From the NCBI RefSeq assembly GCF_040363165.1, contig NZ_BSRG01000008.1, positions 36,141-68,140 on the forward strand: a stretch of DNA of 32,000 nucleotides, given 5' to 3'. Shown here in pieces: positions 5,364 to 28,105 of the stretch. This DNA comes from Thermus sp. LT1-2-5 (GTDB lineage Bacteria > Deinococcota > Deinococci > Deinococcales > Thermaceae). How positions within the stretch are numbered: the stretch's first letter is position 1; each line of letters opens with the position of its first letter. Both the position numbers and the translations under genes were made by a program. The notes beneath the pieces are model-generated. The model was given only the letters and a program-made list of their open reading frames with translations, was not told the origin of the DNA and did not search any database.

Positions 5364-6578
5364 TCACTCTACCAGGTGAACCGAGGAAGGCAGGGGGATA
5401 AGCTTTAACCAAGCCTCGGCCTCAAAGGAGCGGCGCCAGGGAAAGGCGAGGGCCTCGAGGTCTACCCGGTACCCTTCCCACGCCACGTAGGGCCAAAGGG
5501 AAGCCACCCCCAGCGCCTCCTCCCCCAAGGGCTCGGGAAAATGGCCCCGCACCCAAGGCCTCCCCACCTCTCCCCACCAGTAGGCGAAGTAGGCCTCAGC
5601 CAGGCGCCGAAGGCGCTCTTCCCGGTCCCTTAGAAAAAGCCCCCCTTGGGCCAGGGCGCTCCCCAGGTTGTTGGCGGGGGTGCCCCAGGCGGCGTAGGCG
5701 GCAAGCCGACCGTAAAGCCCTAGGGCCTGGAGGTACCCCATGAGCCCCGCATCCCCCCGGTTCACCCGGCTGAGGTCGGCCAAGGCCACGGGGTGGCGGG
5801 CCATGAGGGCCATGAGCTTTAGGAGGACCTTCCTTGGCTCCCCACCCCCGTAGGCGAAGAGGACGAGGTCAGGGGCGGCGGTAAGGGGCACCGCCTCCGC
5901 CTGGGCGCTTCGCAACAGCCCCGCCACCGTTTCCCCCAAGGGTATGCCCTCGTAGGGGGTGGCCCGCTCCGGGGAAACCCCCTCGTAGACCACCGCCACC
6001 CTAAGCCCCGGGCGCACGGCCCGGAGGAGAAGGACCTGCCCCGCCTCGTCCGCCCCCGGACGGCTGGGATAGGGCAGGGCCTGGGCCTCCTTGGGGGCGG
6101 GTGAGCCCCGCACGGCGTCGTCCCACACCGCTTCCAGGTAAAGCCCCTTCAAAGCGGCCCACGGGGCGAGGGCGTGGAGGACTTTTAGGTTTCGCTCCCT
6201 CTGGGTGGCGTCCCAACGGGGCACCACGCCGAAGAGGAAGACCTCCCCGCCATACCGCACCCTCCAGGCCAAAAGGAACCCCAGCCGGGCCAGGGCGTCC
6301 TCAGGGGGAAGGTCCAGGTGGCGGCTTTGCAGAAGCCCACCATACGCTAGGGCGTCCAGGCTGGCGACCAAGCGCTCTCCCGGGGTGGAAAGGAGCCAGG
6401 CCCTAAGGAGGGGAAGGTCCGCCCCCTCGAGGCCCCGGTACACCTCCCGCGGAGGGCAACGCACCCCCTCCCAGCCACAAGGGGCCCAGTTGGGCGGGCG
6501 GTCGTCCAAGGGAAGGTACACAACCCCCGCCCCCAGGGCGAACCCCCACAAAAGGGCGAAGAAGGCGAGCCTGGCCAC
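5364..6578 (-). CDS. Hypothetical exported protein (possibly DUF4127 family)
   Basis: 404 aa with a GTG start. It has an N-terminal hydrophobic segment followed by YLPLDDRPPN, which I associate with DUF4127 proteins. It is tightly packed between trxB and the HD-GYP gene. The family assignment is from memory only. Confidence 0.7.
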   Translation of the reverse strand: MARLAFFALLWGFALGAGVVYLPLDDRPPNWAPCGWEGVRCPPREVYRGLEGADLPLLRAWLLSTPGERLVASLDALAYGGLLQSRHLDLPPEDALARLGFLLAWRVRYGGEVFLFGVVPRWDATQRERNLKVLHALAPWAALKGLYLEAVWDDAVRGSPAPKEAQALPYPSRPGADEAGQVLLLRAVRPGLRVAVVYEGVSPERATPYEGIPLGETVAGLLRSAQAEAVPLTAAPDLVLFAYGGGEPRKVLLKLMALMARHPVALADLSRVNRGDAGLMGYLQALGLYGRLAAYAAWGTPANNLGSALAQGGLFLRDREERLRRLAEAYFAYWWGEVGRPWVRGHFPEPLGEEALGVASLWPYVAWEGYRVDLEALAFPWRRSFEAEAWLKLIPLPSSVHLVE

Positions 6579-6584
6579 GCCTTC

Positions 6585-7577
6585 TTAGGGTTTGGCGGCT
6601 TCCCCTTGGGCCTTGGCCTCGTGTTCCGCCAGGTACTTCTCCGCGGTCATGGCCGCCCGGGTGCCCGCCCCCACGCTGGTGGTGAGCTGGCGGTAGATGG
6701 GGTCGGCCACATCCCCGGCGGCGAAGATGCCCGGCACCGAGGTGTACACCTCGTCCCGCACCGCCACGTAGCCATCGGGCCTGAGCTCCACCACCCCCTT
6801 GAGGAAGCCCGTGTTGGGCTCGTGGCCGATGAAGACGAAGACCCCGTCCGTGGGGTAGACGTATTCCTCCCCCGTCTTCAGGTTCTTTAGCCGCACCCCC
6901 GTCACCTGGTCCTCGCCCAGGATCTCCGTGACCACGTGGGAGAAGAGGAAGTGCATCTTGGGGTTCTGGAAAGCCCGGGCCTGGGCTAGCTTGTTGGCCC
7001 TAAGCTCATCCCGGCGGTGGACCAGGGTCACCTTGCGAGCGAACTTGGTGAGGAAAAGCCCCTCCTCCACGGCGGCGTCCCCCCCGCCCACCACCACCAC
7101 CTCCTTGTCCCGGTAAAAGAAGCCGTCGCAGGTGGCGCAGGTGGACACCCCACGGCCGTAGAACTTGTCCTCGCCGGGAACGCCAAGCCGCCTGGGGTTG
7201 GCCCCGGTGGCCACGATGACCACCCGGGCGGGGTAGCTCCGCTCAAACCCCCGGACCAAGAAGCCCTCCTCCAGGGGCTCTATCCCCAGGACCTCGTCCA
7301 TGACGATCCTGGCCCCGAACTTCTCCGCCTGTTGCACCATGCGGCTAGCCAACTCGGGCCCGGAGATGCCCTCGGGAAAGCCGGGGTAGTTTTCCACCTC
7401 CTCCGTCTGGGCAATCTGCCCCCCCGGGAGGCCTTTTTCCACGATGACCGTCTTGAGGCCTGCCCGGCCCGTATAAATACCTGCGGTGAGGCCCGCCGGC
7501 CCCCCGCCCAGGATGACCACGTCGTAGCGCTCCTCCGCCGCCCCGCTCGCTGAGAGTCCTGCCAAGGAAAACTCCAT
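6585..7577 (-). CDS. trxB: Thioredoxin-disulfide reductase
   Basis: It has the GGGPAG FAD motif, the redox CATCDG motif, a GGGDAA NADPH motif and a GDV motif. I place the start at the ATG at 7577 (MEFSLAG), which is preceded by AAGGAGGGGAGA. The longer track ORF (to 7682) is an unlikely extension. Confidence 0.93.
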
Positions 7578-7695
7578 CTCTCCCCTCCTTCGCTTCCAGG
7601 CTACACCCCCAAATACCCTTGGGGGGTATATACCAAACCCAGTCTGGCGAAAGGACTTCCCCCTGTCAAGGGAAAAAGGCAATCCGAGCCGCTTC

Positions 7696-7771
7696 TGGTG
7701 ACCCCAGGGGGATTCGAACCCCCGTCTCGGCCTTGAGAGGGCCGTGTCCTAGGCCTCTAGACGATGGGGCC
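7696..7771 (-). tRNA. tRNA-Glu (anticodon CUC)
   Basis: The reverse complement GGCCCCATCGTCTAGAGGCCTAGGACACGGCCCTCTCAAGGCCGAGACGGGGGTTCGAATCCCCCTGGGGTCACCA folds as a cloverleaf. The anticodon loop is CU-CUC-AA and the 3' CCA is encoded. Confidence 0.9.
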
Positions 7772-7792
7772 ATGCGCGGCTCGGACTGCTTC

Positions 7793-7867
7793 TGGTGACC
7801 CCAGGGGGATTCGAACCCCCGCCGCCGCCTTGAAAGGGCGGTGACCTAACCACTAGTCGATGGGGCC
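7793..7867 (-). tRNA. tRNA-Glu (anticodon UUC)
   Basis: The reverse complement is GGCCCCATCGACTAGTGGTTAGGTCACCGCCCTTTCAAGGCGGCGGCGGGGGTTCGAATCCCCCTGGGGTCACCA. The anticodon loop is CU-UUC-AA and the CCA is encoded. Confidence 0.9.
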
Positions 7868-7874
7868 AAACATT

Positions 7875-7948
7875 TGGCTGGGGTGCGTGGACTCGAACCA
7901 CGACCGGCGGATCCAGAGTCCGCTGTCCTGCCGTTAGACGACACCCCA
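7875..7948 (-). tRNA. tRNA-Gln (anticodon CUG)
   Basis: The reverse complement is TGGGGTGTCGTCTAACGGCAGGACAGCGGACTCTGGATCCGCCGGTCGTGGTTCGAGTCCACGCACCCCAGCCA. It has the U1-A72 pair typical of tRNA-Gln, a 3-bp D stem, the anticodon loop CU-CUG-GA and an encoded CCA. Confidence 0.88.
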
Positions 7949-7980
7949 GCGGCGGGCGCCCGATCCCTCGGGCAGACGAT

Positions 7981-8625
7981 ATGGTACACTCTAAAGGGCG
8001 GATTGGCAAGCCCCTGATGCCTATGGAGGAAAGCCTTTTACAAATCCTTAGCCGTTATATCTCGCCCATGGCCGCGGAAAACCTTCTGCGCCGGGCCCTA
8101 GGCCCAAGGCTGCCCGCCACCCCAGGGGAGTGGGCGCGGTTCATTGAGGCAAGCCTTTGGCCCGAGCTTGGCCGCCTCCTTCCCTTTCGCGAAATGCCTC
8201 CTGAGCTGAGGGCTTTGGTGCGGGAATTGAAGCAGCTTTCCCTCCAGGAGGCGGAAGGGGAAAGCGAGGAGGCGGAGGAGGAAGAAGCCCTTCTGGAGGA
8301 GGCGGTGGACCTCGAGGACCCCGCGGCCCGGGAACACTTGGCGAGGCGGCTGGCCCGCCTCGAGGGGGTTTTGGGGGTGGTGGTGGCCGGTAGGAGCGGG
8401 AAGGAGGAGCGTTTCGCCGGAGAACCCATCCCGCTAGAGCTCGTCCACCGCCTGCTGGCCCGCCAAGGATACGGGGTTTTCTACGCCCTCCTCCAGGAAA
8501 ACGTGGTGGCCCTAAAACCCCTAGGCGTTGGGTACGTGGGCCTTCTGGCCCGCAAGGAAACCAACATCGGCCGCTTGCTCCACGCCCTGAGGCGGCTTGT
8601 ACCCATCACGGAGGTTAGCGGATGA
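7981..8625 (+). CDS. Hypothetical protein: helical N-domain, acidic linker, possible Roadblock/LC7-like C-domain
   Basis: 214-aa ORF whose TGA overlaps the next ATG (ATGA at 8622-8625). The real start may be the ATG at 8017 or 8023. The C-terminal LEGVLGVVVAGRSGKEE ... GYVGLLARKETNIG only loosely resembles Roadblock/LC7 domains. Confidence 0.55.
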   Translation: MVHSKGRIGKPLMPMEESLLQILSRYISPMAAENLLRRALGPRLPATPGEWARFIEASLWPELGRLLPFREMPPELRALVRELKQLSLQEAEGESEEAEEEEALLEEAVDLEDPAAREHLARRLARLEGVLGVVVAGRSGKEERFAGEPIPLELVHRLLARQGYGVFYALLQENVVALKPLGVGYVGLLARKETNIGRLLHALRRLVPITEVSG

Positions 8626-16021: not shown

Positions 16022-16506
16022 AGCGCTTTTAGGTGGTGGGCCTCGTGATAGGCGGCGGCCCGCACCCAGCCCAAGGCGGTGAGCTCCCCAAAGAAGGGGT
16101 GGGGGAAGGTGGCGGGGTGGTGGGGATTGGCCTTCCCGGCCTCCTCCAGGAGAAAGGCCCGGGCCCTTTCCAAAAGGGCAAGCACCTCTTCCTGGGAAAG
16201 CCCCCCTTGGGGCCTCACCCCCTCGGGGGCCTGGGGCTTGCCGTCCTTGTACTCCCCGGGCTTCACGGAAACGGGCGGGAGGACTTCCCCTGCCGCCACC
16301 CGCCGCAGCCGCCTTAGAACCCGGGCGGTGGACTCCTCCACCAAGGCGATGTGCTCCGCCACCATAAGGGGCGTCCAGGCCCCTTCCCGCAAGGGGCGGG
16401 CAAGCCAATCGGGCTCGGCCCCCTGCAAAAGGGCAAGGAGGGCTTTTCGGCTTTCCCCAAGGCGCGAAAGGGCCTCTTCCCAAGTGCCGTAGGCGTCCAG
16501 TTCCAT
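15997..16506 (-). CDS. DinB-family (DinB_2) metal-dependent protein
   Basis: 169 aa. It has the conserved His pattern of the DinB four-helix bundle (AEHIALVEES ... YHEAHHLKAL). It converges on the grx-like gene with a 25-nt overlap. Confidence 0.75.
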   Translation of the reverse strand: MELDAYGTWEEALSRLGESRKALLALLQGAEPDWLARPLREGAWTPLMVAEHIALVEESTARVLRRLRRVAAGEVLPPVSVKPGEYKDGKPQAPEGVRPQGGLSQEEVLALLERARAFLLEEAGKANPHHPATFPHPFFGELTALGWVRAAAYHEAHHLKALQEAFSSR

Positions 16507-16666
16507 ACCTCAGGATACCAGGGCGCTCCTCCGCCTGGGGGCGGCCCCAGCTTGAAGACCTCCCCTTCCCTAGGCTCGAGGCGAACGTATGCCAGGCCCT
16601 TTGGGAGGAGCGGGAAAAGCGTGGGGTTCGTAGCCGCCCAAAAGGGTTTTCCTGCCCTGCGAGGGG

Positions 16667-16672
16667 TATAAT
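16667..16672 (+). promoter_or_regulatory. Consensus -10 (TATAAT) 6 nt upstream of the fabI ATG, suggesting a leaderless fabI mRNA
   Basis: The sequence reads gaggggTATAATccccccATG. There is no Shine-Dalgarno sequence between the -10 and the ATG. Confidence 0.5.
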
Positions 16673-16678
16673 CCCCCC

Positions 16679-17461
16679 ATGCTCACCCTGGACCTGTCCG
16701 GCAAGAAGGCCCTGGTCATGGGGGTCACCAACCAGCGGAGCCTGGGCTTCGCCATCGCCGAAAAGCTAGCGCAAGCGGGAGCCGAGGTGGCCCTAAGCTA
16801 CCAAGGGGAAAGGATCCGCCCCGAGGCGGAAAAGCTGGCCGAGGCCCTGGGGGGCGCCCTCCTCTTCCAGGCGGACGTGACCCAAGACGCCGAGCTGGAC
16901 GCCCTTTTCGCCGGCCTGAAAGAGGCCTGGGGAAGCCTGGACTACCTGGTCCACGCCATCGCCTTCGCCCCCCGGGAAGCCATGGAGGGGAGGTACCTGG
17001 ACACCCGGCGGCAGGACTGGCTTTTGGCCCTGGAGGTTTCCGCCTACTCCCTGGTGGCGGTGGCCCAGCGGGCCGAAGCCCTGCTCAACCCCGGGGGCAG
17101 CATCGTCACCCTCACCTACTACGCCAGCGAGAAGGTGGTGCCCAAGTACAACGTCATGGCCATCGCCAAGGCTGCCTTGGAGGCGAGCGTCCGCTACCTG
17201 GCCTATGAGCTCGGGCCCAAGGGGGTGCGGGTGAACGCCATCTCCGCTGGCCCCGTGCGCACCGTGGCCGCAAGGAGCATCCCCGGCTTCACCAAGATGT
17301 ACGACCGGGTGGCCCAGACCGCCCCCCTCAAGCGCAACGTCACCCAGGAGGAGGTGGGCAACCTAGGCCTCTTCCTCCTCTCCCCCTTGGGAAGCGGCAT
17401 CACCGGGGAGGTCATCTACGTGGACGCGGGGTACCACATCATGGGGATGGAGCTGGAGTAG
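16679..17461 (+). CDS. fabI: Enoyl-[acyl-carrier-protein] reductase (NADH)
   Basis: 260 aa. It contains [20 protein letters not shown] and the FabI-type SDR catalytic pattern [10 protein letters not shown]. Confidence 0.95.
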
Positions 17462-19874: not shown

Positions 19875-19886
19875 AATGCCCTTGGT

Positions 19887-21122
19887 ATGACGCCAAGGCA
19901 CCTTATCCTGGGCCTCCAGCACACGGTGGCCATGTTCGGGGCCACGGTGCTGGTGCCCCTCCTCACCGGGCTGAACCCGGCGGTGGCCCTCTTCACCGCC
20001 GGGGTAGGTACCCTGGTTTTCCACCTGGCCACGGGACGGATGGTGCCTGTCTTTTTAGGCTCCAGCTTCGCCTTCATCGCCCCCATCCTGGCGGCCAAGG
20101 AGGCGGGGTTTTCCCTGGCGGCGGTGGGGGGCGGGATTGTGGCGGCGGGCCTCGTCTACGCCCTTTTTGCCCTTTTGGTACTCCTCATCGGCTCGGAACG
20201 GGTGCGCCAGGTCTTCCCCCCGGTGGTCACGGGGCCAGTCATCGTGGTCATCGGCCTAACCCTGGCCCCGGTGGCGGTGGGCATGGCGGCCAAGGACTGG
20301 CTTTTGGCCGTGGCCACCTTCTTGGGAGCGGTGGTGAGCGCCGTGTTTTTGCGCGGGCTTTTCCAGATGATCCCCGTGCTCCTTGGGGTGGGGGTGGGGT
20401 ATGTCCTGGCCCTCCTCCTGGGCCGGGTGGACCTAAGGCCCTTGCAGGAGGCCCCCTGGTTCGGTCTTCCCGCCTTCACCTTGGCTTCCTTTGAGTGGGG
20501 GGCGATCCTCCTGATCGCCCCTGTGGCCTTCGTCACGGTGATGGAGCACATCGGGGACATCCTCACCAACGGCCGGGTGGTGGGCAAGGACTTCTTCGTC
20601 CGCCCTGGCCTCCACCGCACCCTTTTGGGGGACGGCCTGGCCACCAGCCTGGCGGGGCTTTTAGGCGGCCCCGCTAACACCACCTACTCCGAGAACACCG
20701 GGGTTTTGGCGGTGACCAAGGTGTATGAGCCCGTGGTCCTCCGCATCGCTGCGGTCTTCGCCATCCTCCTCTCCTTCTCCCCCAAGCTCGCCGCCCTCCT
20801 CCAGACCCTGCCCCAAGGGGTTTTGGGGGGGATTTCCATGCTCCTTTTCGGCATGATCGCCTCCGTGGGCATCCGCACCCTGGCGGAGGCCGAGATCGAC
20901 TTCACCCATAGCCGCAACCTCATCGTGGTCTCCGCCATTCTGGTCCTGGGCCTGGGCGGGGCGGTGGCCAACCTGGGCACGGTGCAGGTGGCGGGGGCGG
21001 CGGTGCCCCTGAAGGTGAGCGGCATGGCCCTGGCGGCCTTGGCGGGGGTGGTGCTAAACCTCCTCTTGCCCCGGCAGCTGGAGCCAGAGGAACTGGCCGC
21101 GGAGGAAGAGCGGCTCCCCTAG
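19887..21122 (+). CDS. NCS2-family nucleobase permease (uracil/xanthine permease)
   Basis: 411 aa with about 12 TM segments. The N-terminal [16 protein letters not shown] and the later [14 protein letters not shown] are typical NCS2 motifs. Confidence 0.88.
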
Positions 21123-25319: not shown

Positions 25320-26240
25320 CTACGAAGCCCCCACCGGATGGAGGAGGGGCTCTTTCCCCCGGCTGCCGGCCCGCCGCCCCACCACCCGCAGGCCCAGGGG
25401 CTCCACCGCCGCCCGGTAACGGGCAGCCTCAGGCAAAAGCTCCCCGTCGGCGTGGGCGGGGACGGGATGGGAAAAGGCCACCTCCACCTCCCGTGCGGCG
25501 AAGGCCGCCACCTGGGGATGGGAAAGGTGCTTGCCCAGAAGGAGCCGGGGAAGGATGAGGACCACCCCGGGCCGGGAAAAGCGCCGGGCCAGGACCACGG
25601 AGAGGAGGCCGTCTTGGGGGTCGGCCATGGGGGCGATGGGGATGCCGCCGCCATAGGCGGGGCCGTTCATGGCGGCCAGGAGCAAAAGGGGGCCCTGGTA
25701 AACCTCCTTCCCCTCCAAAAGGATCCGGCCCTCGGGCAGGCGGAGGTCCTTGAGCACGCTAAAGAGGGCGTAGAGGTAGCGGGGCATGCCCCGGAGGAAG
25801 GAGGGGGCGGAAAGGGCCTTCTTGGCCACCAAGGCGTCAAACCCCACGCCCAAGGAGGCGCCAAAGGGCTCGCCGTTCACCCGGCAGAGGTCCACCGCCT
25901 CCTCGGGGGCGAAAAGGGCGTGCTCCAAGGCCGCGGGCCAGGGAAGCCCCTTGAGGCCCAGCATGCGGGCGAAATCGTTCCCGCTCCCGATAGGCACCAC
26001 CCCCAAGGCCTTTTCCGTGCCGGCGAGGCCCTTGAGCACCTCGTGCACGGTGCCGTCCCCCCCCACCGCCACCACCCGCGCCCCGGGGGGGGCCTCCCGC
26101 GCCAGGAGGGTGGCGTGGCCCGGCCCCTCGGTGAGGAAGGCCCTCGCCCCCTGCTTCCGGGCCGCCTCGAGGATGGCCCCCGAGAGCCTTCCCACCTTGC
26201 CCCGGCCTGCGGCGGGGTTCACGATGACCCAGCGTTCCAC
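25320..26240 (-). CDS. Diacylglycerol-kinase-family lipid kinase (YegS/DagK-like)
   Basis: 306 aa with a GTG start. It starts MERWVIVNPAAGRG and contains VVAVGGDGTVHEV and PIGSGNDFAR, which are DAGK catalytic-domain motifs. Confidence 0.88.
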   Translation of the reverse strand: MERWVIVNPAAGRGKVGRLSGAILEAARKQGARAFLTEGPGHATLLAREAPPGARVVAVGGDGTVHEVLKGLAGTEKALGVVPIGSGNDFARMLGLKGLPWPAALEHALFAPEEAVDLCRVNGEPFGASLGVGFDALVAKKALSAPSFLRGMPRYLYALFSVLKDLRLPEGRILLEGKEVYQGPLLLLAAMNGPAYGGGIPIAPMADPQDGLLSVVLARRFSRPGVVLILPRLLLGKHLSHPQVAAFAAREVEVAFSHPVPAHADGELLPEAARYRAAVEPLGLRVVGRRAGSRGKEPLLHPVGAS

Positions 26241-26251
26241 CCTCGTATTCT

Positions 26252-26257
26252 TATAAA
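26252..26257 (+). promoter_or_regulatory. Candidate -10 (TATAAA) 7 nt upstream of the phage Rep ATG (leaderless-type)
   Basis: The sequence reads cgtattctTATAAAgctttacATG. It lies in the 24-bp gap between the host lipid-kinase start and the Rep start. No good -35 is seen. Confidence 0.35.
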
Positions 26258-26264
26258 GCTTTAC

Positions 26265-27626
26265 ATGAGCTCGGTGAGGCTTCTCGGGTACGGGATAGAT
26301 ACCCTGGTGGTCAATCTCTATTGGGATGAGGGGGCGTACAGCCTGCCCGAGGGCCTAGAGGCCACGCTGGACAACTTGAAGGAGTTGGGACGGGTTGAAC
26401 CGGATGCGGGCGTGCTGTGGGGGGTGGATGCATACCTCCCCCTTCCTAACCCGTTGGCTGGGTGGACGGGTTCTGAGGTGGAGCCTGAGCTGTTCCAGTC
26501 GGCGGCGGTGAGGTCTGTGCGCCATTATCGGTGGATGCTGGATTTTGCGGGGCTCATTTTCTGGCGGCTTTCCTCCGTGAAGGAAACTACTAGGAGGGCC
26601 AATTTCCCGGCTATGCGGGTGGAGTTTACCGGTCGCTACCTCATGTATGCCCGTAGGCGGGCAGATGAGGTGGTGCGGTGGGCAGTGGAAGCCGCCACGA
26701 ACTTGGTTGGGGTTCGGCCTTCTCGGGTGCAAGTGTCCAGGGCAGACCTGTTTTGTGATGTGGAGGTACCGCACGGGTACTTTACCTTGGACTCGCTGAA
26801 CCGGTTTACGTCCAGGAGCCGGGCTCGTGGGCTCTATGCCGTGGAGCCGGCGGCCCCCGGCGAAGCCGGGGCCCCGGCTACCGGGGGGCCCATGAGTATC
26901 ACGCCCCCCGCTACGCGACTTCGGGTCCCGGAGTCCTGGGAAGAGGCTCCGGCGCATTTGTCGGCGCATTTACGGGGTCGGGACTGGTCCGGCTTCACGT
27001 TTGGCCGGGGTCCCCTTCATGCTCGGGTGTACTCCAAGACTATTGAGGCCAAGGCGAAGCCAGGTGCTAGGGCGTTGCTGGAGATGTACGGCCAGGAGCA
27101 CGGGCCGATAGAGGGTGAGGTAATCCGGGTAGAGTTCCAACTAACTACCGAGGCCTTAGCAGAAATCATCGTGCCTGGGGATGGTTCGGATGTCCGGGAT
27201 TGGGACACGTTTGTGTGGGCGGTACCGGCTATTTGGGCTTACTTGACGGGGGACTGGCTTGTGTACCGCCAAGAAGGTGGGTATCGGCGCATGCGGGATA
27301 ACGAGGTGGATGCCGTTTGGGTCGTGGTTCAGTCGGCCTTTCGGTCTGGGGAGGTGGGACGTGGGGGAGTAGTTAGGCACGCGTGGAAGGCTATGGTGGA
27401 CCCGGTCATGTTGGCGAAGCAGGCTTTGGGTGCGTACATGACGGCGCTAGTGGCTGTTGGGAAGGTGGTGGATAGGGTTCGGGGCGTCTGGGTGAGGCTG
27501 TTCCGTGAGCTGGGCTTGGATAAGGAAGGGGAAGAGGCCCTCGGCAAGATAGGGTTTTGGTCCGTTAGGAAGGCAGAGCGGGTGAAGCTGGCCAAGTTCG
27601 GCTTTATGCCGGTCGGAGGTGTGTGA
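26265..27626 (+). CDS. Rolling-circle replication initiator (gene II-like; Rep_trans / phage CRI-type)
   Basis: 453 aa starting at the internal ATG of the 807-aa track ORF (MSSVRLLGYGIDTLVVNLYW). The N-terminal GIDTL motif and the central GRGPLHARVYSKTIE motif resemble the IDxL and R(I/V)Y(D/S)K motifs of Rep_trans/CRI initiators. It is the first gene of the module. Family membership is inferred, not searched. Confidence 0.7.
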   Translation: MSSVRLLGYGIDTLVVNLYWDEGAYSLPEGLEATLDNLKELGRVEPDAGVLWGVDAYLPLPNPLAGWTGSEVEPELFQSAAVRSVRHYRWMLDFAGLIFWRLSSVKETTRRANFPAMRVEFTGRYLMYARRRADEVVRWAVEAATNLVGVRPSRVQVSRADLFCDVEVPHGYFTLDSLNRFTSRSRARGLYAVEPAAPGEAGAPATGGPMSITPPATRLRVPESWEEAPAHLSAHLRGRDWSGFTFGRGPLHARVYSKTIEAKAKPGARALLEMYGQEHGPIEGEVIRVEFQLTTEALAEIIVPGDGSDVRDWDTFVWAVPAIWAYLTGDWLVYRQEGGYRRMRDNEVDAVWVVVQSAFRSGEVGRGGVVRHAWKAMVDPVMLAKQALGAYMTALVAVGKVVDRVRGVWVRLFRELGLDKEGEEALGKIGFWSVRKAERVKLAKFGFMPVGGV

Positions 27627-27925
27627 TGGCTCAAGTGATGGTGTTGGCGGTCAATGTGTTCCAGAAAAAGGACGGTGCGGCGGGGGCTCGGGTGGTGGTG
27701 GCGTCTACGCCTCGCAATCCGAACGTGCGGGGGTTGTTGCCGGTGGAGTTTGAGGCTCTGCCCGAGGTGGCAGATACCATGAAGGTTTTGCCGGGCATCT
27801 ATGACTTGGATGTTGAGCTTCCGGTGTCCTCGGGTTTCGGGCAACCAAATGGGGTGCGGCCCCTAGTGGTAGGGGCTCGGTTCGTGGCGGCGGTGGTGCC
27901 GGATAAGAAACATGCTCAGTCCTGA
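27626..27925 (+). CDS. Putative ssDNA-binding protein (gene V-like)
   Basis: 99 aa. The ATG overlaps the Rep stop (TGATG), and GGAGG lies 6 nt upstream. The protein is small and beta-rich and sits directly after Rep, as in Ff, Pf and other inoviruses. The assignment rests on position and size only. Confidence 0.55.
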   Translation: MAQVMVLAVNVFQKKDGAAGARVVVASTPRNPNVRGLLPVEFEALPEVADTMKVLPGIYDLDVELPVSSGFGQPNGVRPLVVGARFVAAVVPDKKHAQS

Positions 27926-28000
27926 GGAACTCCAGGAGGTTTTGAAGGCAGTCATGTTTGCGTTAGGGGTTATTGCCGGTGCCTTGCTGGGAGGTGAGTG

Positions 28001-28105
28001 GTGAACCCGGTGGTCTGGTTCGGGATGGTGTTGGCGTGGGTTGCGGTGCCGTATACGTTCCTGGCGGCGTACCGCTACACGGGGAGGTTGTATGGGAACC
28101 TGTAG
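28001..28105 (+). CDS. Candidate 34-aa hydrophobic virion-cap protein (pVII/pIX-like)
   Basis: The GTG start is preceded by GGGAGGTG, 6 nt upstream. My translation is MNPVVWFGMVLAWVAVPYTFLAAYRYTGRLYGNL, one TM helix with a basic/aromatic tail. Its size and position match Ff pVII/pIX (32-33 aa). It falls below the ORF-track cutoff. Confidence 0.35.
   Translation: MNPVVWFGMVLAWVAVPYTFLAAYRYTGRLYGNL

What the first reader, a model, noticed from the sequence alone, without database searches (positions are those of the whole stretch)
26237..26264. Left junction: the phage abuts the host lipid-kinase start codon, with an imperfect 13-nt direct repeat at both ends and no integrase
Seen directly: only 24 bp separate the GTG start of the DAG-kinase-like gene (26240, minus strand) from the Rep ATG (26265, plus strand). 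CCACCCTCGTATT (26237-26249) recurs as CCAACCCTGTATT (31887-31899), just after the Zot stop. The spacing of about 5650 bp is consistent with attL/attR cores. The gap holds an AT-rich element, cTTATAAAg, that reads as a -10 hexamer on both strands: TATAAA 7 nt before the Rep ATG, and TATAAG 9 nt before the kinase GTG. Inference: integration replaced the upstream region of the host gene, so its expression and Rep expression may share one bidirectional promoter. With no phage integrase present, a host recombinase (XerC/D, as for CTXphi) or the adjacent transposase-like gene may mediate integration. The junctions show only weak dif-like features (TGTATT central-region-like; ATGTAAA on the minus strand).
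Basis: partly seen in the sequence, partly recalled or inferred. Interest (0 to 1): 0.65.

Follow-up and report, generated by a model that had tools for sequence, protein, structure and literature searches.

The report
Filamentous prophage junction made by IS110-type recombinase
The spot is the true left end of a filamentous prophage sitting in the shared promoter of two Thermus genes, but the proposed 13-nt end repeat is a chance match inside an unrelated insertion sequence, and close relatives show that the phage integrates with its own IS110-type recombinase and a putative guide ("bridge") RNA, not with host XerC/D.

Summary
The coordinates are correct. The kinase GTG is at 26240 (minus strand), the Rep ATG is at 26265, and 24 bp lie between them. 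Host collinearity with three Thermus genomes stops exactly at 26251, so the phage starts at 26252.

The 13-nt "direct repeat" is not an att core. It occurs at chance frequency (6 matches, 8 expected). Its right copy (31887-31899) lies inside the terminal region of an IS630/ISTth6-like element inserted at the CTAG of the Zot stop codon. The window ends 118 nt into that IS, so the real right end is outside the window.

Relatives integrated at the same site show the missing part: Zot, a ~130-nt structured RNA, an IS110-family (DEDD) recombinase, then CT, then the host histidine-phosphatase gene. The RNA has two internal loops. Their sequences match attB (CCCCGTATT-CT-AGGGCC) and attP (GGTTAGGT-CT-TATAAA) according to the published IS621 bridge-RNA rule, and they change together with the sites across lineages.

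Integration splits the Rep promoter (TTGACA-N18-TATAAA).

XerC/D and IS630 explanations are not supported. That these Thermus inoviruses integrate through an IS110 transposase was already proposed in 2024. The bridge RNA, the attB and the split promoter appear to be new details.

The parts
25320..26240 (-). Host DAG-kinase-like (YegS/BmrU-type) lipid kinase gene with a GTG start at 26240-26238.
   Evidence: ORF. Pfam DAGK_cat + YegS_C. It is 93% identical to T. thalpophilus and collinear with Thermus genomes.
26241..26251 (+). Retained host half of attB: left target CCTCGTATT (26241-26249) plus core CT (26250-26251). Empty-site consensus is CCCCGTATT-CT-AGGGCC.
   Evidence: Empty sites. Alignments to L003, L015 and L007 end at 26251. 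It matches 10 of 11 positions of the 5' target-loop guide CCCCGTATTCT of relatives.
26252..26264 (+). Phage left end (right-donor side): TATAAAGCTTTAC. TATAAA (26252-26257) is the -10 half of the split Rep/junction promoter.
   Evidence: The same left end occurs in L094 and L121. TCTTATAA (26249-26256) is complementary to the guide TTATAAGA. The reconstructed attP gives TTGACA-N18-TATAAA, and OH16 has TTGACA-18-TACAAT.
26265..27626 (+). Replication initiator (gene II / Rep). An alternative GTG start lies at 26274.
   Evidence: 54% aa identity to phiOH3/phiOH16 gene II and 86% to L094/L121.
27623..30878 (+). Inovirus structural module: gV 27623-27925, gVII-like 27912-28004, gIX-like 27998-28105, gVIII 28389-28622, gIII 28625-30202, gVI 30444-30878.
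   Evidence: tblastn to OH3/OH16 and the same gene order as the annotated records. gVII and gIX are assigned by position and size only.
30930..31883 (+). Zot-like assembly ATPase (annotated 'IV' in OH3). Its stop codon TAA is rebuilt by the IS insertion; it is TAG in all relatives.
   Evidence: Pfam Zot. 80-90% aa identity to relatives. Relatives end GGCTAGGTG.
31881..32000 (+). Left end of an IS630-family (ISTth6-like) insertion sequence, cut by the window end. It comprises the TA target duplication (31881-31882), the inverted repeat AGTGCCAACC, and the transposase N-terminus starting at ATG 31908.
   Evidence: 100% identical over 122 nt to a T. thermophilus SG0.5JP17-16 plasmid, and 36-42 plasmid records carry copies annotated as IS630/ISTth6. 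The ends were defined from 5 copies: GC-TA|AGTGCC...GGCACT|TA-G.

Best explanation
Window 26241-26264 is attL of an OH16-like (Thomixvirus-type) Thermus inovirus. The phage integrated by IS110-family, bridge-RNA-type site-specific recombination into the 17-bp divergent promoter region between the lipid-kinase gene and a histidine-phosphatase gene.

Shown:
- The host sequence ends at ...CGTATT-CT (26251).
- The phage left end starts TATAAAGC (26252).
- Relatives at the same site end ...GGTTAGGT-CT-AGGGCC-ATG(His_Phos).
- This gives attB = CCCCGTATT-CT-AGGGCC and attP = GGTTAGGT-CT-TATAAA, with a CT core.
- Between Zot and the recombinase gene, relatives encode a ~130-nt RNA with two stem-loops, each carrying a 10+10-nt internal loop.
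- The four loop halves read as left-target+CT, the complement of right-target, left-donor, and the complement of right-donor. This is the rule established for IS621.

Inferred:
- The RNA guides the recombinase.
- The circular phage carries a TTGACA-N18-TATAAA promoter across attP that drives Rep. Integration separates its -35 (in the recombinase 3' end) from its -10 (26252-26257), lowering Rep expression in the prophage.
- Integration replaces the overlapping host -10 boxes (TAGAAT and TATTCT) with hybrid sequences.
- In this window the recombination module should lie beyond an ISTth6-like IS that inserted at the Zot stop codon. That would put attR about 2.1-2.2 kb past the window end.
For: Junction position:
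- Collinearity with three empty-site genomes ends at 26251.
- The empty-site sequence is conserved in 11 Thermus loci.

Same site in independent sequences:
- The identical left junction occurs in L094 (metagenome) and L121 (a Thermus MAG).
- The matching right junction, with the IS110 recombinase abutting His_Phos, occurs in L088 (an IMG/VR viral contig, UViG_2630968794) and L093.
- L093 and L094 are 91-98% identical where they overlap.

Recombinase:
- Pfam DEDD_Tnp_IS110 + Transposase_20.
- Full-length homology to the IS621 (8wt6, E 7e-34) and ISCro4 recombinases.

RNA:
- The consensus fold has two internal-loop hairpins. 95.6% of cells are paired, against 36-61% when partners are slid.
- Variation is concentrated in the loops.

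Guide matches:
- 11, 9, 9 and 8 nt on the strands predicted by the IS621 rule. The total is 37, against a shuffled mean of 20 and maximum of 29 (0 of 5000) (rule from PMC11208160).
- The cognate total exceeds every non-cognate one for L088 and matches within the related group for the others.
- OH16 guides match its own attP.
- A prospective check on isolate genomes gave 10/9/9/7 nt for T. caldilimi and 9/6/9/8 nt for T. caldifontis.

Promoter:
- TTGACA-18-TACAAT in OH16.
- TTGACA-N18-TATAAA in the reconstructed attP.
- None in the window junction as it stands.

Against: - The window itself contains no recombinase, no bridge-like RNA and no attR. Their presence downstream is inferred from relatives that are only 70-80% identical in DNA. 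The source contig could not be retrieved.
- phiOH3 shows that this module can be lost.
- The host left target in the window has one mismatch to the relatives' guide (CCTCG versus CCCCG).
- The RNA stems are nearly invariant, so stem covariation is weak (3 pairs).
- The single-sequence fold is not more stable than shuffles (z = -1.05).
- Rfam has no matching family.
- No transcript or recombination data exist for these elements.
- One isolate prophage (L122) has an irregular attL.
Confidence: 0.8

Rival explanations
1. Host XerC/D integrates the phage at a dif-like site, CTXphi-style. The 13-nt imperfect repeat would represent the attL/attR cores.
For: No integrase gene is visible in the window. 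Many inoviruses use XerC/D (literature cited in PMC4763002).
Against: - The repeat occurs at chance frequency, and its right copy is inside an IS630 element.
- attB is the 17-bp kinase/His_Phos promoter.
- Both junctions carry a CT core and match the RNA guides of a phage-encoded IS110 system in relatives at the same site.
- Sister phages sit at different, guide-matched sites rather than at one dif.
Confidence: 0.03
2. The adjacent transposase-like gene (IS630 family) mobilised or integrated the phage.
For: It lies immediately after Zot.
Against: - It is a standard ISTth6-like copy with its own inverted repeats and a CTAG/TA target duplication. It is found in many unrelated plasmid contexts.
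- It interrupts the phage at the Zot stop codon.
- Relatives with the same attL have no IS there.
- The left junction has no IS630 inverted repeat.
Confidence: 0.02
3. The phage IS110-family transposase performs the integration but recognises the sites through protein alone. The conserved RNA-like region would then be a regulatory leader, and the loop/site matches would be by-products.
For: No RNA or biochemical data exist for these elements. The stems show little covariation.
Against: - The four loop halves match the sites with the strand polarity of the IS621 rule.
- They change together with different att sites in at least five lineages.
- The recombinase is a full-length homologue of two structurally characterised bridge recombinases.
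Confidence: 0.07
4. The window's prophage is a fixed, immobile remnant. The IS630 insertion, and possibly further decay or deletion of the recombinase module as in phiOH3, would have left attL as a fossil.
For: - The IS sits between Zot and the expected RNA/recombinase region and disrupts the small Cys-rich ORF start.
- OH3 lost most of the transposase gene.
Against: All visible phage genes are intact ORFs. The downstream region cannot be seen. This concerns present activity and is compatible with the proposed origin of the junction.
Confidence: 0.3

Closest known systems
IS621 / IS110-family bridge-RNA recombination (Durrant et al. 2024, PMC11208160; structures 8wt6, 9t56)
   Same: - DEDD + Tnp recombinase.
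- An upstream RNA with a target-binding and a donor-binding internal loop.
- The 5' loop halves read as the top-strand left flank plus core, and the 3' halves as the bottom-strand right flank.
- A CT core.
- A sigma70-type promoter rebuilt across the RE-LE junction of the circle.
   Different: - Here about 5.6 kb of inovirus genes lie between the element's left terminus and the RNA gene.
- The junction promoter sits directly in front of the phage Rep gene.
- The hosts are thermophiles.
- A sister clade appears to use the donor site in inverted orientation.
- No experimental evidence exists for these elements.
Thermus inoviruses phiOH16, Zuza8, Zuza27 and their proviruses (PMC11437467); phiOH3 (PMC4763002)
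   Same: - Same gene order and homologous proteins (Rep 54%, Zot 80% aa).
[quoted passage not shown]
   Different: - The window phage is a distinct lineage (about 76% nt identity, and only over Zot).
- It sits at the kinase/His_Phos promoter.
- It carries an ISTth6-like IS in the Zot stop codon.
- The papers do not describe the att sites, the CT core, a bridge RNA or the split promoter.
Neisseria filamentous prophages Nf/MDA with a pivNM/irg IS110-family transposase (Kawai et al. 2005, cited)
   Same: A filamentous phage that carries an IS110-family transposase at one end and integrates site-specifically with it.
   Different: The host phylum and target differ (dRS3 repeats). This comparison rests on the literature and was not made here.
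CTXphi-type XerC/D-dif integration
   Same: An inovirus prophage with no tyrosine integrase in view.
   Different: There is no dif-like duplicated core. The att sites match phage RNA guides, and related phages use different sites.

Membership tests
IS110-family bridge-RNA recombination system | Recombinase with a DEDD (RuvC-like) domain and a Tnp domain | tested here: met
   Met in relatives at the same att site (L088, L093) and in OH16: PF01548 + PF02371, and full-length homology to IS621 and ISCro4. Not visible in the window itself.
IS110-family bridge-RNA recombination system | The module (RNA + recombinase + attR) is present in this particular prophage | not testable with these tools
   The window ends 118 nt into an IS at 32000. 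The source contig (68,142 bp) could not be retrieved.
IS110-family bridge-RNA recombination system | Non-coding RNA 5' of the recombinase gene with two internal-loop hairpins | tested here: met
   RNAalifold on 10 variants gives two hairpins with 10+10-nt internal loops. 95.6% of cells are paired, against 36-61% in slid controls. There is little stem covariation and no Rfam family.
IS110-family bridge-RNA recombination system | Loop halves complementary to target and donor flanks with IS621 polarity, and covarying with the sites | tested here: met
   L088 group: 11/9/9/8 nt. No shuffle out of 5000 reached the total. New isolates L123 and L124 follow the rule.
IS110-family bridge-RNA recombination system | Shared core dinucleotide (CT) at both element ends | tested here: met
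   Window attL ...CGTATT-CT-TATAAA. attR in L088 and L093 is ...GGTTAGGT-CT-AGGGCC. attB is CCCCGTATT-CT-AGGGCC.
IS110-family bridge-RNA recombination system | RNA-dependent recombination activity | not testable with these tools
   Requires experiments.
OH3/OH16-like Thermus inoviruses (Thomixvirus, Paulinoviridae) | Homologous Rep, gV, gIII, gVI and Zot in the same order | tested here: met
   tblastn gives 48-80% aa identity for all five, in the same order.
XerC/D-dif integrating inoviruses | A duplicated dif-like core at both prophage ends | tested here: not met
   The candidate repeat is at chance level and its right copy is inside an IS.
XerC/D-dif integrating inoviruses | attB coincides with the chromosomal dif or terminus | not tested
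   No whole chromosome of the source was available. attB is a gene-promoter site conserved next to the kinase in 11 genomes.
IS630/Tc1-mariner family (ISTth6-like), window 31881-32000 | Terminal inverted repeats and a TA duplication at a CTAG target; HTH-type transposase N-terminus | tested here: met
   The ends are AGTGCC...GGCACT flanked by C-TA/TA-G in 5 copies. The RefSeq annotation is IS630/ISTth6. HTH domains were found. Only the left end is visible in the window.

The most novel reading that the evidence does not exclude
OH16-like Thermus inoviruses are in effect IS110 elements with a whole filamentous phage as cargo. A phage-encoded bridge RNA programs integration into chosen host promoters, here the overlapping -10 boxes of two divergent, apparently leaderless genes. 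The IS110 'junction promoter' has become the Rep promoter, so phage replication is licensed only after excision. Lineages retarget by changing loop sequences, and one clade has inverted its donor site. These would also be natural thermostable bridge recombinases.
Probability: 0.6. Interest if true: 0.7.

Novelty: new member of a known kind. Interest (0 to 1): 0.5.

Why it matters
- It corrects the anatomy of this prophage. The right end is not after Zot, and the integrase is phage-encoded.
- It gives a base-level model (attB, attP, CT core, four guides) for how a group of thermophilic filamentous phages choose their integration sites. That model can be tested directly by PCR of the circle junction and by loop swaps.
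- If the RNA guide is functional, these are phage-borne and presumably thermostable bridge recombinases.
- The split Rep promoter would be a simple switch linking excision to replication.
- Integration also rewires the promoters of a lipid kinase and a phosphatase.

Tried and rejected
- Exact-sequence look-ups of the window's Zot (two start choices), kinase and Rep found nothing. The right flank of this genome therefore stayed out of reach.
- A single-protein Rep scan and an exact IS DNA scan of viral contigs found nothing.
- A fixed DNA pattern for the RNA scaffold found only two viral contigs.
- Rfam gave only a spurious miRNA hit.
- I first read the L097-L108 clade in the same orientation as L088. 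The matches then fell on the wrong strands. They fit the IS621 rule only if donor and target are read on the opposite strand. The apparent intact target next to L108 is explained by a 20-bp palindromic target.
- The 1.2-kb window-specific segment at 19875-21105 is a xanthine/uracil permease gene, not a mobile element.
- One search printed a 17-nt spacer because I cut the right end one base short. With the full CT core the spacer is 18 (coordinates).
- The simple promoter scan finds no full sigma70 promoter at the empty host site. The host -10 reading (TAGAAT and TATTCT, 6 nt from the start codons) is therefore only an inference.

Full report
**1. What is in the sequence**

- CAC at 26238-26240 is the GTG start of a 306-aa minus-strand ORF. 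It carries DAGK_cat and YegS_C domains.
- An ATG at 26265 opens a 453-aa plus-strand ORF that is 54% identical to gene II (replication endonuclease) of Thermus phages phiOH3 and phiOH16.
- Downstream lie homologues of gV, gVIII, gIII, gVI and the Zot-like ATPase in the OH3/OH16 order.
- Window 26265-31883 is therefore an OH16-like inovirus prophage, and the 24 bp at 26241-26264 hold its left junction.

**2. Where the junction is**

I scanned GTDB representative genomes with the kinase protein. This returned 13 Thermus loci, 11 of which carry an uninterrupted site.
- Upstream of the kinase GTG these read ...CCCAT-GGCCC-TAGAAT-ACGGGG-GTG. A divergent gene starts only 17 nt from the kinase start.
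- That gene encodes a His_Phos_1 protein.
- In window orientation the empty site is CCAC-CCCCGTATT-CT-AGGGCC-ATGG.
- Alignments of the window to T. thalpophilus, T. composti and T. scotoductus all stop at 26251.
- The host therefore runs through ...CCTCGTATTCT (26241-26251), and the phage begins TATAAAGCTTTAC-ATG at 26252.

**3. The proposed 13-nt direct repeat**

The two 13-mers share 10 of 13 positions. At that stringency the window holds 6 matches, against 7.97 +/- 2.94 expected by chance.

More decisive is where the right copy sits.
- From about 31879 to 32000 the window is 100% identical to a T. thermophilus plasmid segment and 92-95% identical to many others annotated as IS630 / ISTth6 transposase.
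- Comparing five copies in unrelated contexts fixes the element ends as GC-TA|AGTGCC(A/C)...GGCACT|TA-G. This is the CTAG target with TA duplication known for IS630 (the target rule is from my own knowledge).
- Every relative of the phage ends Zot with GGC-TAG-GTG.
- The IS therefore inserted into the CTAG that contains the Zot stop codon and rebuilt it as TAA.
- The window stops 118 nt into it, so the true right end of the prophage cannot be seen.

**4. What relatives show**

A scan of IMG/VR with a Zot alignment found L088, a viral contig (IMGVR_UViG_2630968794) whose Zot is 88% identical. After Zot it carries, in order:
- a small Cys-rich ORF;
- about 130 nt of non-coding sequence;
- a 313-317-aa ORF with DEDD_Tnp_IS110 and Transposase_20 domains;
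- then, 10 nt after its stop, the ATG of the same His_Phos gene that flanks the empty site.

A metagenome scan added further junctions.
- L093 has the same right junction.
- L094 has the same left junction as the window: kinase GTG, CCCCGTATT-CT-TATAAACCTTTAC-ATG.
- L093 and L094 are 91-98% identical where they overlap.
- A Thermus MAG contig (L121) gives a third independent copy of the left junction in the same host synteny.

Together these give:

| Site | Sequence |
|---|---|
| attL | CCCCGTATT-CT-TATAAA |
| attR | GGTTAGGT-CT-AGGGCC |
| attB | CCCCGTATT-CT-AGGGCC |
| attP | GGTTAGGT-CT-TATAAA |

Most longer relatives keep the IS110-type gene after Zot. phiOH3 retains only its 3' remnant. 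Three isolate genomes (Thermus sp. [quoted passage not shown] This arrangement was already reported, and an Nf-like transposase-mediated integration proposed, in PMC11437467.

**5. A bridge-RNA-like element**

The spacer between Zot and the recombinase gene is conserved as a scaffold with four variable blocks.
- RNAalifold on ten variants predicts two hairpins, each with a symmetric 10+10-nt internal loop. The variable blocks are those loops.
- 95.6% of cells are paired, against 36-61% when partners are slid.
- The stems hardly vary, so stem covariation is weak.

In the L088 group the four loop halves match the att sites as follows:

| Loop half | Sequence | Match |
|---|---|---|
| 5' half, loop 1 | CCCCGTATTCT | attB left flank plus CT, top strand, 11 nt |
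| 3' half, loop 1 | GCCCTAGAC | bottom strand of the right junction, 9 nt |
| 5' half, loop 2 | TGGTTAGGT | phage right end, top strand, 9 nt |
| 3' half, loop 2 | TTATAAGA | bottom strand of TCTTATAA at the phage left end, 8 nt |

- This is the polarity published for IS621 (PMC11208160). [quoted passage not shown]
- The summed match is 37 nt. Shuffled loops give a mean of 20 and a maximum of 29 (0 of 5000).
- The L088 RNA matches no other phage's junctions comparably.
- phiOH16's donor loops match its own attP (GTGTAGT-CT-TACAA).
- As a prospective test, the T. caldilimi provirus gave 10/9/9/7 nt and the T. caldifontis provirus 9/6/9/8 nt on the predicted strands. Thermus sp. PS18 has a clean attR but an irregular attL.
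- The recombinase aligns over its full length with IS621 (8wt6, E 7e-34) and ISCro4 (9t56).
- Rfam 15 has no matching family.
- I found no paper in the held library linking bridge RNAs with filamentous phages or Thermus.

**6. The AT-rich element**

- In phiOH16 the recombinase gene ends in CTTGACA. Eighteen nt later, just past the CT core, comes TACAAT, followed by the Rep start. The scan tool calls this an 11/12 promoter.
- Joining the L088 right end to the window or L094 left end gives TTGACA-N18-TATAAA (coordinates; one search shows 17 because of a one-base trimming slip).
- The junction in the window as it stands has no such promoter.
- The CTTGACA motif is kept at the recombinase 3' end in all clades, and a -10-like hexamer follows the core in each.
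- This is the IS110 'junction promoter' described for IS621. Here it sits in front of Rep.
- I infer that integration uncouples Rep from its -35, and that excision restores it.
- On the other strand the host TAGAAT (6 nt from the kinase GTG) becomes AAGAAT/TATAAG. On the far side the His_Phos TATTCT becomes AGGTCT.
- Effects on host gene expression are plausible but untested. The simple scan sees no full promoter at the empty site.

**7. Verdict on the interpretations**

- XerC/D-dif integration has no support. There is no duplicated core, the target is a promoter, the att sites match phage-encoded guides, and sister phages sit at other guide-matched sites.
- The IS630 element is an unrelated later insertion.
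- The main uncertainty is that this window's own RNA, recombinase and attR are out of view. Its Rep is on a 68-kb contig that I could not retrieve.
- The module could also have been lost or damaged, as in phiOH3.
- I expect attR about 2.1-2.2 kb beyond the window end (IS about 1.0 kb plus about 1.2 kb).

**8. Novelty**

The phage type and its IS110-mediated integration are already in the literature (PMC11437467; Kawai 2005 for Neisseria). So is the bridge-RNA mechanism (PMC11208160), and a 2026 preprint describes cargo-bearing IS110 loci. The additions here are:
- the base-level att sites;
- a putative bridge RNA with guides that covary with their sites in this phage lineage;
- the Rep promoter split across attP;
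- the specific host target.

I class this as a new member of a known kind, with moderate interest.

Noticed in passing
window 31881-32000: An ISTth6-like IS630-family element is inserted exactly in the CTAG of the Zot stop codon, changing TAG to TAA. It also separates the start (GTGGCTAGG) of a small Cys-rich ORF from its body.
   Followed up: yes
L088 3870-4007; L090 5525-5662; L123, L124 after Zot: A conserved ~45-aa ORF with a CxxC...CP...CP pattern (MARCPVCGMPHSLAMQVNRYKRHCPYVAFGRCPYDPRRGIYRMRR) overlaps the Zot stop in most relatives. It has no Pfam hit and is absent from OH3 and OH16. It could be a zinc-ribbon regulator of the integration module.
   Followed up: partly
L097-L105, L108 (metagenome contigs): In a sister clade the loop/site matches fit the IS621 rule only on the opposite strand. 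The ~16-bp donor site seems inverted relative to the recombinase gene (bottom strand ATGGTAGT-CT-CACAAC, against OH16 top strand GTGTAGT-CT-TACAAT). The crossover register (CT or AG) is ambiguous without an empty site.
   Followed up: partly
L099 versus L098/L104: The host flank of the L099 prophage (CCGGTAAGCT) matches the target guide of L098/L104 (10-11 nt) better than its own guide (GGGGTAAGCT, 8 nt). This may reflect off-target or half-match integration, or exchange of guides.
   Followed up: no
L109-L115 (metagenome contigs): A more distant inovirus clade (Zot 61-67% identical) carries an IS110-family gene (about 40% identical) on the opposite strand downstream of Zot.
   Followed up: no
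window 30876-30930: A tandem duplication of a 27-28-nt unit (TGATGGGTGGTGTGTAGCTAAGGG(T/G)GT) lies at the gVI stop / Zot start boundary.
   Followed up: no
window 29458-29719: gIII contains three Asp/Gly-rich repeats (DTDGDGWPD-like). There is a weak Pfam hit to bacterial TSP3 (calcium-binding) repeats, also seen in the gIII of relatives.
   Followed up: partly
L088 3997-4002; L090 5661-5666; L097 ~5587: A conserved TAGAAT lies about 7-10 nt upstream of the predicted RNA 5' stem. This suggests the RNA has its own -10 element in addition to any read-through from the phage operon.
   Followed up: no
L122 (Thermus sp. PS18 CP102606) 6093-8374 and 16236-16880: This inovirus provirus sits next to a tyrosine integrase/S24 repressor block and a Rad52-like gene, so it lies inside or beside another mobile element. 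Its attL is irregular (TAGGT where CT is expected).
   Followed up: partly
window 19875-21105: A xanthine/uracil permease gene is present in the window but absent from the otherwise collinear T. thalpophilus locus. The AT skew is strongly negative there.
   Followed up: partly
window 30203-30443: A GC-rich non-coding stretch of about 240 nt lies between gIII and gVI, and is conserved in position in relatives. It may hold the origin or the packaging signal, since the Zot-Rep spacer is taken up by the integration module.
   Followed up: no
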